Below the pieces are notes generated by a model, which was not told the DNA's origin, did not search any database, and worked only from the letters and a program-made list of their open reading frames with translations. The position numbers and the translations under genes were made by a program. From Candidatus Dojkabacteria bacterium (GTDB taxonomy: Bacteria; Patescibacteriota; Dojkabacteria; B142; WJKM01), in the NCBI GenBank assembly GCA_020429465.1, contig JAGQLH010000001.1:1-24000 (forward strand): a stretch of 24,000 nt of DNA. Direction: 5' to 3'. Below are positions 4,801-9,285 of this stretch, in pieces (positions within the stretch are counted from its first letter, which is position 1; each line of letters opens with the position of its first letter).

Positions 4801-6132
4801 ATGTCTTATTTTGTGCCCATAATTTTTGCACTATGTTATTTATTACAAATCTTTTCCATGCCGGCAAAAAAGAACTCAGAAGAACAATCTTCTCCTCCCA
4901 AAAAACTCGATAGAGCTCGTTTGCATAATAGAGGTGAGATAGATGCATCGGATGATGGTGGTTCGCTTCGCGCAATTATCATTTTAGTAATTATTATTGT
5001 AGCAGTTGCAGTAGGTGGTGCTTTTCTTGTAAGAAGCATTCAAAATTCTAGGTTGAATCAAGAGCAGGATGATACAGTGACTGATGCAGATGTCACGCCA
5101 ACACCAACCCCAGAAGATGAAGAGTTAGATGAACCTGATCTCTCAGACCAAATACTTTCTTCAGACGTACTACCTGACTCTGAAGCTGAATTTGTTACAG
5201 AAGAGTCAGATTATATTACGGAAGATACTCAATTCGAGGGAGATGAAGAAGCTACATTCGCTCTTTCTTCTGTAGTAGGACAGCCATATGAGACATTTTA
5301 CAGATTAGTATTCACCTTTGATTCTCCGGATTCTCCTGAGATTATGGTTCCTCCTACTGATGTGAACTATCGGAATATCAGTCAAGAAGTCGAAGTTTCA
5401 TTCTTGAATACTACAGAGGATACTTCAGGGATTGAAATTGGACAGTCAGTTGTAGCTAAGAATTCAACATTCTCATCTCTTGTGAAAAGCGCACGATCAA
5501 CTGAAGATGTAGTTATTTACAAAATTCAGTTTAATGAGAGTACTTCATATGCTGCTCAAATTCATGAAAATGAGTTTATTCTCGATATTTTTGAGGTAGA
5601 TCCGCTCTCAGCAAATGATACTGAGGATTTGGATGATGATGACACTACATTATTAGAAGACGAAGATAGTGAGGATGAAGATCAAGATGATGTGGAAGAT
5701 GAGGATACATCTTCATCAAGTAGTATTGGTTCTGGAAGTAAAACAGAGATTGCAGGAAGTGGTGATAGTATGGGAGCAATTTCAGGATTTAGTTTCTTTG
5801 ATTCCTCTGATAAATTTACCTACCAGCTCAAATTAGCTGATGAAAATGTTCCAAAAATTACTTCTTCTGTAGAGGAAGATGATGACGAAGTAGTAATAAC
5901 ATTTGTGATTGAAGATATTCGGTTCGATGCATTGCCAAAAGATGGCGTAGGATACCGTGACTTTACAGAAGGAGGGGTAACAAATATGTCAGAGCTAAAT
6001 ATTAGACATGCAGGAAATAAATCTGAATATGCATTTAGCATGAAGGAAGAAGCTGAATACACTATTTATATTGATGATTCAAAAGAAGAATTTGACGAAA
6101 ATCGGATTATAATTGAATTTATGCATCCGTAA
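4801..6132 (+). CDS. Hypothetical single-pass membrane protein with poly-acidic linkers and two beta-rich repeats
   Basis: 443-aa ORF. An alternative and perhaps more likely start is ATG 4858 (MPAKKNSEE...). It has a TM helix (AIIILVIIIVAVAVGGAFLV), D/E-rich low-complexity tracts and two similar-looking beta-strand-rich segments. I recognise no family. Confidence 0.7.
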   Translation: MSYFVPIIFALCYLLQIFSMPAKKNSEEQSSPPKKLDRARLHNRGEIDASDDGGSLRAIIILVIIIVAVAVGGAFLVRSIQNSRLNQEQDDTVTDADVTPTPTPEDEELDEPDLSDQILSSDVLPDSEAEFVTEESDYITEDTQFEGDEEATFALSSVVGQPYETFYRLVFTFDSPDSPEIMVPPTDVNYRNISQEVEVSFLNTTEDTSGIEIGQSVVAKNSTFSSLVKSARSTEDVVIYKIQFNESTSYAAQIHENEFILDIFEVDPLSANDTEDLDDDDTTLLEDEDSEDEDQDDVEDEDTSSSSSIGSGSKTEIAGSGDSMGAISGFSFFDSSDKFTYQLKLADENVPKITSSVEEDDDEVVITFVIEDIRFDALPKDGVGYRDFTEGGVTNMSELNIRHAGNKSEYAFSMKEEAEYTIYIDDSKEEFDENRIIIEFMHP

Positions 6133-6153: not shown

Positions 6154-6190
6154 CGTAGGGACGCAAAATTTTGCGTCCCTACGTTTTTTT
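6154..6190. terminator. Rho-independent terminator between convergent genes, probably bidirectional
   Basis: Perfect 15-bp palindromic stem CGTAGGGACGCAAAA/TTTTGCGTCCCTACG (6154-6183) followed by T7 (6184-6190). Outer arms ATCATAAATT (6141-6150) and AATTTATGAT (6192-6201) extend it to a 61-bp composite inverted repeat. Confidence 0.85.
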
Positions 6191-6201
6191 GAATTTATGA
6201 T

Positions 6202-7566
6202 TTATGGTCGCATGCGGTTTAACATTCGAGCGAATGGAATGGTTTCTCGAATATGGTGAATCCCAGAAATAAAACGAACAGTTCGTTCTAGCCCTATTCC
6301 AAATCCTGAGTGAGGAATTGTTCCATACTTACGTAGATCCATATACCACTCATAGTCTTCATGAGGGTAATTATGTTGGTCTATGATATCCAGCATTTCA
6401 TTGTAATCAAATATACGCTCTGATCCACCCATTAGCTCTCCAAATCCTTCAGGTGCTACTAGATCCACAGCTCGTGAGCGGAGAAGTTTATCCCCATCAT
6501 ACTGTACTCGAGTCATATAGAAAGCTTTAATTTCTGCTGGCCAATCTGTGACGAATACTGGGACATCGTAAAGTTCTGCTAACTTTGCTTCTTCAGGGGA
6601 TCCTATATCGTCAAGTGGACTCAGTCCCATATCGTATTTTTCGTTTAGCACTTCTATCGTTTCTGCGTGTGTAAGTCGAACGAATGATTTATCGACATAC
6701 CGTTGTAGTGCTTCTGTATCTCGTTCAAGAACTTGTAACTCTCGCTTACAATTTTTTAGACAATCACTAATAAGACGCTTTAAAAGTGCTTCTTCAAAAT
6801 CCATTAACCCATTTAAGTCAGTAAATGGAAGCTCTGCATCCATCATCCAAAATTCAATGAGATGTTTACGTGTCTTTGATTTTTCTGCTCTAAATACTGG
6901 TCCAAAGTCATATGTTCTTCCGAGAGCAAATTCAGCCGCCTCACAGTAGAGTTGTCCTGACTGTGTAAGGTATGTTTTATCTCCAAAATAATCTACTTCG
7001 AATAATTCAGAAGTGTCTTCGCATGAAACTGGTTGAAAAATTGGTGTATCAATACGAATAAATCCTTCTTCCCTAAGGAAGCTAGTCATGCTGAAGAATA
7101 TTTCATCTCGTATTTTGAGTACAGCTCTTTGTGTGGTAGAACGTAGCCAAAGGTGTCGATTATCCATGAGAAATTCAGGTCCGTGCTCTTTGTTGCTAAT
7201 CGGAAATTCTGGAGAAATTTGAATAATCTTTATATCAGTCAGATCCATTTCAAATCCAAATGGTGAACGATCGTCCTTTCGGACGACACCCTTTACTTGG
7301 AGTGAGGATTCCTGTGTGAGTTCTTGAACATCATTCCAAATTTGCTCAGAAACCTTGGGTTGTTCAACAATGATTTGGATATCGCCACTTCCGTCTCTAA
7401 ACTCTAAGAAGCTGATTTTTCCGGAACCACGTTTTTTATAAACCCAGCCATGAAGTGTCACTTCTTGCCCATCATATTGTGCGATATCCTTCAATAGAAC
7501 TGAGTCGTCTAATTCAGAGGCAGATTTGATTCTGGGTAAGTATTGTTTATCGAGTTTTTGTAGCAT
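6202..7566 (-). CDS. asnS: Asparagine--tRNA ligase (class IIb; archaeal-type C-terminus)
   Basis: N-terminal OB fold (ISFLEFRDGSGDIQIIV). QSGQLY...FGPVFRAEKSKTRKHLIEFWMMDAE matches motif 2 with the SGQL and EFWM signatures that favour AsnRS over AspRS. GGSERI and HSGFGIGLERTVRFISGIHHIRETIPFAR match motif 3. A cognate tRNA-Asn lies immediately upstream. Confidence 0.85.
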   Translation of the reverse strand: MLQKLDKQYLPRIKSASELDDSVLLKDIAQYDGQEVTLHGWVYKKRGSGKISFLEFRDGSGDIQIIVEQPKVSEQIWNDVQELTQESSLQVKGVVRKDDRSPFGFEMDLTDIKIIQISPEFPISNKEHGPEFLMDNRHLWLRSTTQRAVLKIRDEIFFSMTSFLREEGFIRIDTPIFQPVSCEDTSELFEVDYFGDKTYLTQSGQLYCEAAEFALGRTYDFGPVFRAEKSKTRKHLIEFWMMDAELPFTDLNGLMDFEEALLKRLISDCLKNCKRELQVLERDTEALQRYVDKSFVRLTHAETIEVLNEKYDMGLSPLDDIGSPEEAKLAELYDVPVFVTDWPAEIKAFYMTRVQYDGDKLLRSRAVDLVAPEGFGELMGGSERIFDYNEMLDIIDQHNYPHEDYEWYMDLRKYGTIPHSGFGIGLERTVRFISGIHHIRETIPFARMLNRMRP

Positions 7567-7710
7567 TGCTATATGGTGTAAATTAAAACGAGTAGTATTT
7601 ACTGTCTACTGAGCAGGAAATCGATCCACCAAAATCCCACGAAGTCGGAATGAAGGAGGAGACTTTAATCCAAGCTATAGTTCCACGCATGAAATCTGTA
7701 GAAGAGTCTG

Positions 7711-7783
7711 CTGAGCAGGTAGGACTCGAACCTACAACCACTCGATTAACAGTCGAGAGCTCTACCAATTGAGCTACTGCTCA
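7711..7783 (-). tRNA. tRNA-Asn (anticodon GTT), 73 nt, CCA not encoded
   Basis: Manual cloverleaf on the minus strand: acceptor TGAGCAG/CTGCTCA, D arm GCTC-AATTGGTA-GAGC, anticodon arm CTCGA-CTGTTAA-TCGAG and T arm GTAGG-TTCGAGT-CCTAC. The variable loop is TGGTT and the discriminator is G. The next bases are CAG, not CCA. Confidence 0.93.
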
Positions 7784-7897
7784 GCAGACTCTTCATATAT
7801 TTGTACAACAATCTAGTAGACTTTAAATACTTTACCTCTTCTACGTCCTACTTCACTAAATCATGTAGAATTTCGGTAGGTAATAGATACTTGTAAT

Positions 7898-7920
7898 AAA
7901 AAAATCCCTTTCGGGATTTT
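7898..7920 (-). terminator. Intrinsic terminator hairpin, proposed as the 3:4 element of the Asn attenuator
   Basis: Minus strand reads AAAAUCCC-GAAA-GGGAUUUU followed by UUU, giving 7 consecutive U. It has a GNRA tetraloop and lies 115 nt upstream of the tRNA-Asn 5' end. The stem is short with 3 GC pairs, so strength is modest. Confidence 0.55.
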
Positions 7921-7954
7921 GTTAGTTCTATCATTTTTCAACAACAAAAGCCCT

Positions 7955-8011
7955 TTAGAGTTGGGTTATATTCAAATTTGAATTATTATTGTTGTTGATT
8001 TGTTTTCTCAT
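7955..8011 (-). CDS. Candidate leaderless Asn-rich leader peptide (18 aa: MRKQINNNNNSNLNITQL)
   Basis: The reading is ATG AGA AAA CAA ATC AAC AAC AAT AAT AAT TCA AAT TTG AAT ATA ACC CAA CTC TAA. The ATG begins 6 nt after a perfect TATAAT. Seven of 18 codons are Asn and five are consecutive. It is too short for the ORF track. Support is contextual: promoter, alternative helices, terminator and a downstream Asn operon. Confidence 0.45.
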   Translation of the reverse strand: MRKQINNNNNSNLNITQL

Positions 8012-8017
8012 AGGAGT

Positions 8018-8046
8018 ATTATAAAAGAAGAGGTAGGTGAATGCAA
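8018..8046 (-). promoter_or_regulatory. Sigma70-type promoter for the leader/tRNA-Asn/asnS transcription unit
   Basis: Minus strand has TTGCAT (8046-8041), a 17-nt spacer and TATAAT (8023-8018). The predicted +1 coincides with the A of ATG at 8011. The region is AT-rich, so a chance match is possible. Confidence 0.45.
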
Positions 8047-8178
8047 ATATTTTTACTTACTATTAATATAGTATATAATCAGTTCGACTTTTGTAATGTA
8101 GGTGTGAGGATTACGTTACTAGAAGAGATTGGAGATTAGGTTGAGAAAATATCTTTGATATATAAAACAAACTTGCTT

Positions 8179-9285
8179 ATGACAAATAAAACTATAGAAA
8201 TCTCTGTAAAAGGGAGAGTTCAGGGGGTATACTTTCGAAAATCTGCTGCTAATTTTGCTTCCTCTTTGCGATTAACAGGGTATGTTGAAAATTTACCTAA
8301 CGGATCAGTCCATATTGTTGGGCAAGGACCGGAAAGTCATCTTGAAGAGCTTTTAAAATGGTGTCAGAGGGGGTCATTATTTGCTCATGTAGAAGGTATG
8401 AGTTATGAATGGGTTGAATCTGATGAAATTTTCTCGAGTTTTTCTGTTAAAAGAAAAGGCTCGATATTAAAAGATCAAGCTAAGAGTTTTCTCAATCTTG
8501 GAAAAAAGCTGTCGCATGAATTTGGAGTTATAAATAAAGAAACTACAAATATCCCAGAACACGTTGTTATTATCCCTAATGGAAATAGGACCTGGTCTCG
8601 TGAGAAAGGTTTGAAATCGTGGGAAGGGTATTGGCATGTACTTAAGCATAAAGAAAAATTAATTGATGCAGCACGGGATCTCCATATAAAGCACCTTACT
8701 TTCTGGGGATTTTCTACAGAAAATTGGAAACGAAGTGAAGAAGAAATCGATCAGCTCATGAAGGTATTTCATAGCATTGTTGATAAATTTGGACCTCGGT
8801 TTATTAAGGAACAGGTAAGATTTAGACACATTGGGAGAAAGGATCGTCTTCCTGAAGATTTAGTTGAAAAGATTATTGTGCTCGAAGAAAAGACTAAAGA
8901 TTATCAAGACGAATCAGTTAATATTGCATTTGATTATGGTGGTCGAGACGAGATTCTCAGAGTCGTTGATACACTTATTAAATCAGGTAAGACTGAGGTT
9001 ACTGAAGAAGATTTCTCTGAGTTGCTTGATACAGCTGGACTTCCCGATCCTGACCTTATTATTCGAACGGCTGGAGAAAAACGATTGAGTGGCCTCATGC
9101 CATGGCAATCGGTGTATTCAGAATTTTATTCCACAAATGTATACTTCCCGGACTTTGGTGTAGAACACTTACGAGAGGCAATTTTGGACTTCAGTGCTCG
9201 AAAAAGAACATTTGGTGGAGATAAGAATATTCATGCAAAGCAAACATCAAATCATTCTAAGGTTATTCCTAATATTGCAGTATAG
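8179..9285 (+). CDS. uppS: Acylphosphatase domain fused to isoprenyl transferase (cis-prenyltransferase/UppS family)
   Basis: The ORF track starts at TTG 8155, but ATG 8179 is more likely. The N-terminal ~90 aa (VKGRVQGVYFRKSA...GYVENLPNGSVHIVGQG) carry acylphosphatase signatures. The remainder carries UppS motifs: HVVIIPNGNRTWS, FWGFSTENWKRSEEEIDQLM, AFDYGGRDEI, DLIIRTAGEKRLSG..PWQ and a final FGG. Confidence 0.85.
   Translation: MTNKTIEISVKGRVQGVYFRKSAANFASSLRLTGYVENLPNGSVHIVGQGPESHLEELLKWCQRGSLFAHVEGMSYEWVESDEIFSSFSVKRKGSILKDQAKSFLNLGKKLSHEFGVINKETTNIPEHVVIIPNGNRTWSREKGLKSWEGYWHVLKHKEKLIDAARDLHIKHLTFWGFSTENWKRSEEEIDQLMKVFHSIVDKFGPRFIKEQVRFRHIGRKDRLPEDLVEKIIVLEEKTKDYQDESVNIAFDYGGRDEILRVVDTLIKSGKTEVTEEDFSELLDTAGLPDPDLIIRTAGEKRLSGLMPWQSVYSEFYSTNVYFPDFGVEHLREAILDFSARKRTFGGDKNIHAKQTSNHSKVIPNIAV

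What the first reader, a model, noticed from the sequence alone, without database searches (positions are those of the whole stretch)
7898..8046. Candidate Asn-codon leader-peptide transcription attenuator upstream of tRNA-Asn and asnS
All coordinates are on the minus strand. TTGCAT (8046-8041), a 17-nt spacer and TATAAT (8023-8018) are followed after 6 nt by ATG (8011), which is leaderless-mRNA geometry. The ORF encodes MRKQINNNNNSNLNITQL, with 7 Asn codons of 18 and five consecutive at 7996-7982. Segment 1, UCAACAACAA (7998-7989), lies inside the Asn run and pairs 10/10 with segment 2, UUGUUGUUGA (7947-7938). An overlapping segment, GGGCUUUUGUUG (7953-7942), starts 2 nt after the stop codon (7957-7955). 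It pairs with UAACAAAAUCCC (7924-7913) through 10 Watson-Crick pairs and 1 GU pair, with 1 mismatch. That partner is also the 5' arm of the hairpin AAAAUCCC-GAAA-GGGAUUUU (7920-7901), which is followed by a U-run to 7898. The 1:2, 2:3 and 3:4 helices share nucleotides and so are mutually exclusive, as in the trp, his, thr and pheM attenuators. A ribosome stalled on the Asn run would mask segment 1 and free segment 2 to form the antiterminator. A ribosome reaching the stop codon would cover segment 2 and allow the terminator to form. The genes downstream on the same strand are tRNA-Asn(GUU) (7783-7711) and AsnRS (7566-6202), so the sensed signal matches the regulated products. I know of no described Asn-specific leader-peptide attenuator, nor one controlling a tRNA gene together with its synthetase.
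Basis: partly seen in the sequence, partly recalled or inferred. Interest (0 to 1): 0.85.

Follow-up and report, generated by a model that had tools for sequence, protein, structure and literature searches.

The report
Asparagine-sensing leader-peptide attenuator before tRNA-Asn
Upstream of the asparagine tRNA gene and the asparaginyl-tRNA synthetase gene of this candidate-phyla-radiation bacterium lies a tiny gene full of asparagine codons followed by a stop signal for transcription. It appears to switch those two genes on when charged asparagine tRNA runs low, and I found no earlier report of this classic mechanism for asparagine or for a tRNA gene.

Summary

The window comes from a Candidatus Dojkabacteria (CPR/Patescibacteria) genome. 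I found 16 further distinct leaders of the same design in related loci. Each has a short ORF with an Asn run and a terminator, and in most a -10 box ends 6-8 nt before the start codon. All sit directly upstream of tRNA-Asn or asnS, often with no room for another promoter.

Folding with a modelled ribosome shows that stalling on the Asn run lets an antiterminator form, and reaching the stop codon blocks it. Each antiterminator strand matches its own terminator (swap test, 0 of 20,000 permutations).

Rfam has no matching family, and nine literature searches found no Asn-specific leader or leader-controlled tRNA gene.

This is a new variant of classical ribosome-mediated attenuation. There are no expression data, the leader is patchy among close relatives, and the window's own statistics are modest.

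The parts
8041..8046 (-). -35 box TTGCAT
   Evidence: Read. The scan reports the overlapping TTTGCA with an 18-nt spacer and TATAAT, 10 of 12 matches.
8018..8023 (-). -10 box TATAAT, ending 6 nt before the ATG (leaderless geometry)
   Evidence: The same 6-8 nt geometry occurs in 14 of 17 related leaders.
7955..8011 (-). Leader ORF MRKQINNNNNSNLNITQL plus stop codon (7957-7955)
   Evidence: Found again by the unbiased scan for short ORFs with a residue run and a terminator.
7982..7996 (-). Run of five consecutive Asn codons (AAC AAC AAT AAT AAT), the proposed sensing site
   Evidence: Asn runs of 3-8 codons occur in all 17 leaders, with synonymous AAC/AAT variation.
7989..7998 (-). Segment 1, UCAACAACAA, inside the Asn run
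   Evidence: Inverted repeat I5, 10/10 complementary. Paired in the unconstrained minimum-free-energy fold.
7938..7953 (-). Segment 2. Bases 7947-7938 pair with segment 1. Bases 7953-7942 form the 5' strand of the antiterminator, which starts 2 nt after the stop codon.
7913..7924 (-). Segment 3, UAACAAAAUCCC. It is the 3' strand of the antiterminator and also the 5' arm of the terminator.
   Evidence: RNAduplex -10.5 kcal/mol, 11 pairs. Inverted repeat I7.
7898..7920 (-). Intrinsic terminator AAAAUCCC-GAAA-GGGAUUUU followed by a U run
   Evidence: An identical hairpin and U run (AAATCCCGAAAGGGATTTTTTT) lie upstream of asnS in L204.
7784..7897 (-). 114-nt spacer between terminator and tRNA. No promoter at 9 or more of 12 matches was found.
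   Evidence: By eye the best candidate is TTTAAA-16 nt-TACAAA, which is weak, so an internal promoter is not excluded.
7710..7783 (-). tRNA-Asn (GUU), no CCA encoded, proposed first regulated gene
7701..7794 (-). 18-bp perfect stem made of the acceptor stem plus 11 bp of flanking sequence. It encloses the tRNA and may be a processing stem.
   Evidence: Inverted repeat I1.
6202..7566 (-). asnS (asparaginyl-tRNA synthetase, 454 aa), proposed second regulated gene. No terminator lies in the 143 nt between it and the tRNA.

Best explanation
This is a ribosome-mediated, leader-peptide transcription attenuator that senses the supply of charged tRNA-Asn. It controls read-through into tRNA-Asn and, most likely, asnS.

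**Proposed sequence of events (inferred from the anatomy):**
1. Transcription starts at or next to the ATG at 8011, giving a leaderless mRNA.
2. A 70S ribosome translates the 18-codon ORF while RNA polymerase moves ahead.
3. If Asn-tRNA-Asn is plentiful, the ribosome reaches the stop codon at 7957-7955.
4. At the stop codon it covers segment 2, which begins 2 nt later.
5. Segment 3 then pairs with segment 4, and the terminator at 7920-7898 releases a transcript of about 114 nt.
6. If Asn-tRNA-Asn is scarce, the ribosome stalls on the five Asn codons. This masks segment 1 and leaves segment 2 free.
7. Segment 2 pairs with segment 3 (-10.5 kcal/mol) before the 3' arm of the terminator has been made.
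8. Polymerase then reads on into tRNA-Asn and asnS.
9. Untranslated RNA forms helix 1:2 plus the terminator and also terminates.

The result is negative feedback on the level of Asn-tRNA-Asn.

**Shown:** the sequence elements, their mutual exclusivity, their conservation and co-variation, and their exclusive association with tRNA-Asn and asnS.

**Inferred:** the transcription start site, coupling of translation to transcription, termination in vivo and the response to asparagine.
For: **1. The anatomy is confirmed**.

**2. The design recurs in other genomes.**
- In 80 AsnRS-anchored genome loci, 8 of 9 tRNA-Asn genes are preceded on the same strand by a short ORF with an Asn run plus a terminator.
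- One further locus, L020, has the same leader directly before asnS.

**3. Close relatives carry it.**
- The relatives with 71-76% AsnRS identity (L201, L204, L206, L207) carry an Asn leader 18-23 nt before asnS.
- L204 shares the window's synteny and has an identical terminator.

**4. An independent pattern search agrees.** A metagenome search that did not include any tRNA sequence returned four real leaders. Every one is followed by tRNA-Asn 9-57 nt later.

**5. There is often no room for a separate promoter.**
- In 8 of the 12 distinct tRNA-linked leaders the terminator ends only 8-18 nt before the tRNA.
- In 5 loci it ends 18-23 nt before asnS.
- Expression of these essential genes must therefore pass through the terminator.

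**6. Ribosome-constrained folding supports the switch**.
- A stall on the Asn run gives an antiterminator of -7 to -17 kcal/mol. It occupies most of the terminator's 5' arm in 12 of 14 leaders and part of it in L043 and L046.
- A ribosome at the stop codon leaves the 5' arm free in 12 of 14.

**7. The antiterminator is not a chance feature.**
- Shuffling the spacer gives a combined Fisher p of 1.8e-10.
- In the swap test, each leader's own terminator pairs at -12.2 kcal/mol on average, against -6.7 +/- 0.8 for permuted partners. None of 20,000 permutations reaches the observed value, and the cognate terminator ranks 1-3 of 14.

**8. The signal is specific to Asn.**
- I scanned 1.06 Mb (both strands counted) for short ORFs with four or more identical consecutive residues followed by a terminator.
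- Every Asn hit lies upstream of tRNA-Asn or asnS.
- The scan returned no Lys or Ile runs.
- The only Phe run lies upstream of prephenate dehydratase.

**9. The leaderless geometry is conserved.** A -10 box ends 6-8 nt before the start codon in 14 of 17 leaders, and 9 of these are exact TATAAT.
Against: - There are no expression data of any kind. The organism is an uncultured candidate-phyla-radiation bacterium.
- Among Dojkabacteria-like asnS loci with at least 67% AsnRS identity, 10 of 15 lack the leader at asnS. L211 lacks it despite sharing the window's synteny.
- For the window alone the spacer-shuffle test is only marginal (p = 0.05).
- With the full leader at equilibrium, the terminator state stays more stable even with a stalled ribosome (-17.0 against -10.9 kcal/mol). 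The switch therefore has to be kinetic, as it is in the trp attenuator.
- The window has 114 nt between the terminator and the tRNA, and 143 nt between the tRNA and asnS. Weak internal promoters there cannot be excluded, for example TTTAAA-16-TACAAA, or TAGACA-17-TAATTT before asnS.
- The second structural subtype (L043, L051, L077, L046, L047) does not show a clear 1:2 helix in the unconstrained fold.
Confidence: 0.85

Rival explanations
1. The short ORF is an independent small-peptide gene with its own terminator. tRNA-Asn and asnS are driven by their own promoters, and the alternative helices are incidental.
For: The window has 114 nt between the terminator and the tRNA, where a weak promoter could lie (one search found none at 9 or more of 12 matches). 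L046 has a TATAAT-containing stretch between its terminator and its tRNA.
Against: - The peptide sequence is not conserved apart from the Asn run.
- In 8 tRNA-linked leaders only 8-18 nt separate the terminator from the tRNA, and in 5 loci only 18-23 nt separate it from asnS. This leaves no room for a promoter.
- The antiterminator strand co-varies with the terminator.
Confidence: 0.05
2. The hairpins act without translation, for example as an RNA switch that binds a ligand, a protein or a tRNA, or as a small RNA. The ORF is a by-product of AT-rich sequence.
For: Helix 1:2 and the terminator fold well without any ribosome (z = -4.15).
Against: - The reading frame, the start codon at a fixed distance from the -10 box, the stop-codon position next to segment 2 and the synonymous AAC/AAT changes are all conserved. 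The primary sequence is not.
- No Rfam family matches, and in particular no T-box, even at E up to 10 in the window or at gathering score in 13 relatives.
Confidence: 0.05
3. The TCAACAACAA/TTGTTGTTGA inverted repeat is a DNA operator for a regulator acting in the divergent promoter region between the acylphosphatase/UppS fusion gene and asnS.
For: The repeat is a perfect 10-bp inverted repeat in a divergent intergenic region.
Against: - It lies downstream of the promoter, inside the ORF and its 3' flank.
- In relatives the paired sequences differ and keep only their complementarity to the Asn codons.
- The same design is found where no divergent gene is present (L201, L206, L207).
Confidence: 0.02
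4. The whole arrangement is a chance product of AT-rich, low-complexity sequence.
For: A loose pattern (an Asn-codon run, 45-75 nt, then GGGAKTTTTTT) matches many unrelated metagenome sequences. Of 120 hits, 116 were not leaders.
Against: - The four hits with a proper short ORF are all followed by tRNA-Asn.
- In the unbiased scan of 1.06 Mb, every Asn hit sits before tRNA-Asn or asnS.
- The swap and shuffle tests are strongly significant.
Confidence: 0.01

Closest known systems
pheM leader of the Escherichia coli pheST operon (leader-peptide attenuator of an aminoacyl-tRNA synthetase; from established knowledge)
   Same: A short leader ORF with tandem codons for the cognate amino acid. An intrinsic terminator with an overlapping antiterminator. 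The regulated gene is the synthetase for that amino acid.
   Different: Asn instead of Phe. The start is leaderless rather than Shine-Dalgarno-led. A tRNA gene lies in the regulated unit. There is no sequence similarity. The host is a different phylum (candidate phyla radiation).
trpL, hisL, thrL, leuL, ilvL and pheL attenuators of amino-acid biosynthesis operons (Yanofsky-type attenuation; Rfam leader families)
   Same: The same four-segment logic: helices 1:2, 2:3 and 3:4, with the outcome set by ribosome stalling on regulatory codons. In the window and its subtype, untranslated RNA also forms 1:2 plus the terminator.
   Different: - The targets are a tRNA gene and a synthetase, not biosynthetic enzymes.
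- No Rfam leader model matches.
- No Asn-specific member turned up in nine literature searches.
[quoted passage not shown] 2014, PMC4007540)
   Same: [quoted passage not shown] Synthetase genes such as cysS are the proposed targets of attenuation.
   Different: - The phylum is different.
- No tRNA gene is reported as a target.
- The list of the 14 peptides (their Table S9) could not be read here, so I do not know whether asnS is among them.
T-box riboswitches upstream of asnS and other synthetase genes in Firmicutes (from established knowledge)
   Same: The regulatory purpose is the same: synthetase expression rises when the charged fraction of the cognate tRNA falls, through a terminator/antiterminator choice.
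   Different: A T-box binds uncharged tRNA directly and needs no translation. No T-box match was found here. Here the ribosome reads the signal.
His leader peptide upstream of hisS paralogues and hisZ in Bacillus (Naville and Gautheret 2010, PMC2965389)
   Same: A leader-peptide attenuator in front of a synthetase-family gene, found outside Proteobacteria by comparative analysis.
   Different: His rather than Asn. No tRNA gene. Not leaderless, as far as that paper describes.

Membership tests
Ribosome-mediated leader-peptide transcription attenuators (functional class) | A short ORF in the 5' leader with tandem codons for the amino acid that matches the regulated genes | tested here: met
   The window ORF has 7 Asn codons of 18, five of them consecutive. 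All 17 leaders have Asn runs of 3-8 codons. The downstream genes are tRNA-Asn and AsnRS.
Ribosome-mediated leader-peptide transcription attenuators (functional class) | An intrinsic terminator between the leader ORF and the regulated gene | tested here: met
   Hairpin at 7920-7901 plus a U run. A terminator is present in every related leader.
Ribosome-mediated leader-peptide transcription attenuators (functional class) | An antiterminator helix that shares nucleotides with the terminator's 5' arm | tested here: met
   - In the window, 7953-7942 pairs with 7924-7913 at -10.5 kcal/mol.
- An antiterminator is present in all 14 leaders tested.
- It exceeds shuffled spacers, combined p = 1.8e-10.
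Ribosome-mediated leader-peptide transcription attenuators (functional class) | Ribosome position decides the outcome: a stall on the regulatory codons frees the antiterminator strand, and a ribosome at the stop codon covers it | tested here: met
   Constraint folding used a footprint reaching 12 nt past the A site. The antiterminator forms on a stall and is lost at the stop codon in 12 of 14 leaders. In the window its 5' strand begins 2 nt after the stop codon. This is an in-silico test only.
Ribosome-mediated leader-peptide transcription attenuators (functional class) | Conservation in relatives with compensatory change in the helices | tested here: met
   In the swap test each leader's own terminator ranks 1-3 of 14, and 0 of 20,000 permutations reach the observed mean. 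Column-by-column covariation could not be counted because the MAFFT alignment was too poor.
Ribosome-mediated leader-peptide transcription attenuators (functional class) | Premature termination in vivo that is relieved by starvation for the cognate aminoacyl-tRNA | not testable with these tools
   No transcriptome or experimental data are available for this uncultured organism.
Curated Rfam leader families (His, Thr, Trp, Leu and other leaders) | A match to the family covariance model | tested here: not met
   In window 7400-8400 at E up to 10, only the tRNA and weak chance hits were found. In 13 related loci at gathering score, only tRNAs were found.
T-box riboswitch | Stem I with a specifier loop and the conserved T-box antiterminator sequence, detected by the Rfam T-box model | tested here: not met
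   No T-box hit at E up to 10 or at gathering score in relatives.

The most novel reading that the evidence does not exclude
A tRNA gene is feedback-controlled by ribosome stalling at its own codons. A leaderless Asn leader peptide and its attenuator gate transcription of tRNA-Asn, and in some lineages asnS, across diverse candidate-phyla-radiation bacteria. If so, this would be three things at once: the first Asn-specific leader-peptide attenuator, the first leader-peptide control of a tRNA gene, and direct evidence for coupled transcription-translation and leaderless initiation as regulatory tools in these reduced genomes.
Probability: 0.6. Interest if true: 0.8.

Novelty: new variant of a known kind. 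Interest (0 to 1): 0.72.

Why it matters
- **A new target for a classic mechanism.** Leader-peptide attenuation is a textbook mechanism, known mainly for amino-acid biosynthesis operons and a few synthetase genes. Here the same logic appears with a new amino acid, asparagine, and a new kind of target, a tRNA gene. In many of these loci the tRNA can only be transcribed by reading through the terminator.
- **A simple homeostat.** The circuit would hold the level of charged tRNA-Asn steady without any protein regulator. That suits candidate-phyla-radiation bacteria, which have tiny genomes, few regulators and probably depend on hosts for amino acids.
- **Evidence on basic biology of these bacteria.** It gives concrete comparative support for leaderless translation and for transcription-translation coupling in a group where almost no gene regulation has been described.
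- **A testable element.** The leader is about 115 nt long and compact enough to be tested directly in vitro or in reporter fusions.

Tried and rejected
- **Metagenome pattern scan** (AAAAAAMTCCCN{45,75}ATTATTATTRTT).
- **MAFFT alignment of 11 leaders** (A1). Indels misplace the helices, so I did not use it for column-wise pair counting or a covariance model. I used per-sequence constraint folding and a swap test instead.
- **Exact look-up of the window's AsnRS.** It is not on record, so no second copy of this genome was available.
- **The ddG measure.** It blocks only the terminator's 5' arm, which understates antiterminators that extend upstream of the arm. This applies to the window, L204 and L020, whose individual p-values are therefore weak.
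Rejected, because the repeat sequence is not conserved.
- **T-box and other Rfam families.** No match.
- **Literature.** Nine full-text searches on Asn leader peptides, asnS attenuation, leader-controlled tRNA genes, pheV and candidate-phyla-radiation attenuators found nothing relevant except the D. deserti leaderless leader peptides. Their Table S9 is not held.
- **An unverified memory.** I recalled that E. coli pheV might carry an attenuator-like leader, but could not verify it, and I do not rely on it.
Full report
**1.

All coordinates are on the minus strand. The following are read directly from the sequence:
- TTGCAT at 8046-8041, a 17-nt spacer and TATAAT at 8023-8018.
- Six nt later, ATG at 8011.
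- The ORF ends at TAA (7957-7955) and encodes MRKQINNNNNSNLNITQL.
- It has seven Asn codons, five of them consecutive at 7996-7982.

Tool results agree:
- The consensus scan reports this promoter and the terminator AAAATCCC-GAAA-GGGATTTT (7920-7901) with its T run.
- The repeat finder reports helix 1:2 (7998-7989 / 7947-7938, 10/10) and helix 2:3 (7953-7943 / 7923-7913).
- RNAduplex reproduces the 2:3 pairing as 10 Watson-Crick pairs, one G-U pair and one mismatch, at -10.5 kcal/mol.
- The free RNA folds into 1:2 plus the terminator at -25.3 kcal/mol, with z = -4.15 against dinucleotide shuffles.
- tRNA-Asn(GUU) is at 7783-7710.
- A class II AsnRS is at 7566-6202.
- No terminator-like site lies between the tRNA and asnS.

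**2. Where the window comes from**

- The best AsnRS homologues are 71-76% identical. [quoted passage not shown]
- The upstream gene is divergent. It encodes an acylphosphatase fused to undecaprenyl-diphosphate synthase.
- The terminator therefore cannot belong to an upstream gene on the same strand.

**3. The same design recurs in other genomes, always before tRNA-Asn or asnS**

*AsnRS-anchored genome loci.*
- I fetched 80 genome loci using AsnRS as the anchor.
- Nine of them carry a tRNA-Asn gene near asnS.
- Eight of those tRNA genes are preceded on the same strand by a short ORF with an Asn run followed by a terminator: L021, L040, L043, L046, L047, L048, L051 and L077. Only L016 is not.
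- L020 has such a leader directly before asnS, with no tRNA.
- Examples of the peptides are MIFLNNNNILIFIGG, MKTTFNNNNNFNSN, VIKKSSNSNNNNSNS, MKLLNNNNNNNNTACGM and MVKLHLKSNNNNNNNSPVDGV.

*Closest relatives reachable through exact-protein look-ups.*
- Four of them carry an Asn leader 18-23 nt upstream of asnS: L201 (MNKTINNNNNSNSSQ), L204 (MNNNPSINNINQNNSQI), L206 (MIKTIGYNNNNNSNCSH) and L207 (MNKINNNNNNSNSG).
- L204 shares the window's gene order. Its terminator, AAATCCCGAAAGGGATTTTTTT, is identical to the window's, but it has no tRNA.

*Metagenome pattern search.*
- The pattern contained no tRNA sequence, and most of its hits were chance matches.
- Its four genuine leaders (L142, L178/L196, L194) are each followed by tRNA-Asn 9-57 nt later.

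In all there are 17 distinct leader sequences, counting the window.

**4. What is conserved and what is not**

- Apart from the Asn run, the peptide sequences differ. The runs themselves mix AAC and AAT, and near-identical copies differ by synonymous changes.
- A -10 hexamer ends 6-8 nt before the start codon in 14 of 17 leaders. Nine of these are exact TATAAT, and four have TTGACA 17 nt upstream. Conserved spacing of this kind is what a leaderless mRNA requires.
- The terminators fall into unrelated sequence types: ..AUCCC/GGGAU.., CUCCC/GGGAG, GCUAG/CUAGC and CCGC/GCGG.

**5. Tests of the mechanism**

*Constraint folding.*
- I folded each of 14 non-redundant leaders with a ribosome modelled as an unpaired block reaching 12 nt past the A site.
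- With the ribosome on the Asn run, and with the terminator's 3' arm not yet transcribed, an antiterminator of -7 to -17 kcal/mol forms. It occupies most of the terminator's 5' arm in 12 of 14 leaders and part of it in L043 and L046. In the window it is -10.9 to -12.8 kcal/mol and covers 6 of 7 arm nucleotides.
- With the ribosome at the stop codon, the 5' arm is free in 12 of 14 leaders, and the terminator is the only substantial structure.
- Untranslated RNA of the window's subtype forms 1:2 plus the terminator.

*Spacer shuffle.*
- Shuffling only the spacer between the stall site and the terminator shows that the antiterminator is stronger than expected. The combined Fisher p is 1.8e-10.
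- The window alone gives p = 0.05.
- This measure understates antiterminators that extend upstream of the arm.

*Swap test.*
- I paired each leader's stop-proximal region with every leader's terminator 5' arm.
- Cognate pairs average -12.2 kcal/mol. Permuted partners average -6.7 +/- 0.8.
- None of 20,000 permutations reaches the observed value, and each cognate partner ranks first to third of 14.
- This is helix-level compensatory change.

**6. Specificity for asparagine**

- I scanned 1.06 Mb (both strands counted) of the held loci for ORFs of 8-32 codons that have four or more identical consecutive residues and a terminator within 90 nt.
- Every Asn hit lies before tRNA-Asn or asnS.
- The scan returned no Lys or Ile runs.
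- There were a few Ser and Leu hits without promoter geometry.
- One hit was a Phe run, MKQNKNKFFFFFFIRS, in a Dojkabacteria contig (L017). It lies directly upstream of prephenate dehydratase.
- That hit looks like a classical pheA-type attenuator, so these bacteria seem to use the mechanism more generally.

**7. What is regulated**

- In 8 of the 12 distinct tRNA-linked leaders, the U run ends only 8-18 nt before the first base of the tRNA.
- In the five asnS-linked loci, it ends 18-23 nt before the start codon.
- There is no space for a separate promoter in either case, so these essential genes must be expressed by read-through.
- The window is looser, with 114 nt to the tRNA and 143 nt from the tRNA to asnS.
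- No promoter reaching 9 of 12 matches was found in either spacer. Weak ones cannot be excluded.
- L204 has the same attenuator abutting asnS. In the window the tRNA is bracketed by inverted repeats, and its 3' end is partly duplicated. The tRNA therefore looks like a cassette that came to lie inside an asnS attenuator unit.

**8. Comparison with what is known**

- By function this is a Yanofsky-type leader-peptide attenuator. All the features that can be tested in silico are met.
- Its nearest functional analogue is the pheM leader of E. coli pheST (from established knowledge).
- It is not a member of any curated Rfam family, and it is not a T-box.
- Leaderless leader peptides upstream of synthetase genes were proposed in Deinococcus deserti (PMC4007540). 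I could not read their list.
- His leader peptides upstream of hisS paralogues were described in Bacillus (PMC2965389).
- Nine full-text searches found no Asn-specific leader peptide and no tRNA gene under leader-peptide control.
- Absence from this library does not prove absence from the literature.

**9. Caveats**

- Nothing here is experimental.
- The leader is patchy among close relatives. Ten of 15 Dojkabacteria-like asnS loci lack it. In those genomes the position of tRNA-Asn is unknown.
- At equilibrium the terminator state is more stable than the antiterminator even with a stalled ribosome. The decision must therefore be kinetic.
- A second structural subtype (L043, L051, L077, L046, L047) has an antiterminator inside the 3' end of the ORF and no clear 1:2 helix. 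Untranslated RNA of that subtype might read through.
- Some taxon labels in the record titles, such as 'uncultured Gammaproteobacteria', are probably unreliable. I do not use them to claim spread beyond Patescibacteria.

**10. Verdict**

- It is a new variant of a known kind: new amino-acid specificity, a new target class (a tRNA gene, with or without its synthetase), leaderless, and found in candidate-phyla-radiation bacteria.

Noticed in passing
window 7701-7794 (inner stem), 7594-7610 / 7815-7831 (outer repeat), 7604-7617 (direct repeat): - tRNA-Asn is enclosed by an 18-bp perfect stem made of its acceptor stem plus 11 bp of flank. It has no encoded CCA.
- A second inverted repeat (15 of 17) brackets the whole 238-nt region.
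- Fourteen nt of the tRNA's 3' end are repeated (13 of 14) about 100 nt downstream.
- Together with L204, which lacks the tRNA, this suggests an inserted tRNA cassette. The stems could be RNase III-type processing sites that separate the tRNA from the asnS mRNA.
- Similar flank complementarity is visible at the tRNA-Asn genes of L046 and L047.
   Followed up: partly
L017 2529-2640: This Dojkabacteria contig has a leader ORF MKQNKNKFFFFFFIRS with six consecutive Phe codons and a strong terminator. It lies directly upstream of a prephenate dehydratase gene (PDT plus ACT domains). It looks like a pheA-type leader-peptide attenuator in a candidate-phyla-radiation bacterium.
   Followed up: partly
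window 7620-7638 versus 7913-7931: GGGATTTTGGTGGATCGAT lies between the tRNA and asnS. It resembles the 3' arm of the terminator and is 79% complementary to segment 3. It may be a remnant of a duplicated terminator arm or a further long-range pairing. Unexplained.
   Followed up: no
proteins P0002, P0013, P0019, P0026, P0038 and others (L204 2501-4354, L207 2001-3872): Several Dojkabacteria AsnRS proteins are about 615-660 aa long and carry an N-terminal YbaK-like tRNA_edit domain (PF04073) fused to the synthetase. The window's AsnRS (454 aa) lacks it.
   Followed up: no
window 8155-9285 (+): The divergent neighbour is a fusion of an acylphosphatase domain with undecaprenyl-diphosphate synthase. 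The fusion is conserved next to asnS in L204 and L211.
   Followed up: no
L040 2359-2366, L178 and L194 (just before tRNA-Asn): In this leader subfamily a TATAAT hexamer abuts the first base of tRNA-Asn. It lies too close to the tRNA to serve as a promoter for a full-length tRNA. Its conservation is unexplained, though it may simply be AU-rich context for RNase P.
   Followed up: no
window 6154-6183: A GC-rich hairpin, CGTAGGGACGCAAAATTTTGCGTCCCTACG, lies between the convergent asnS gene (-) and the 443-aa ORF at 4801-6132 (+). On the minus strand a run of seven A precedes it, which reads as a T run after the hairpin on the plus strand. It is probably a shared or bidirectional terminator.
   Followed up: no
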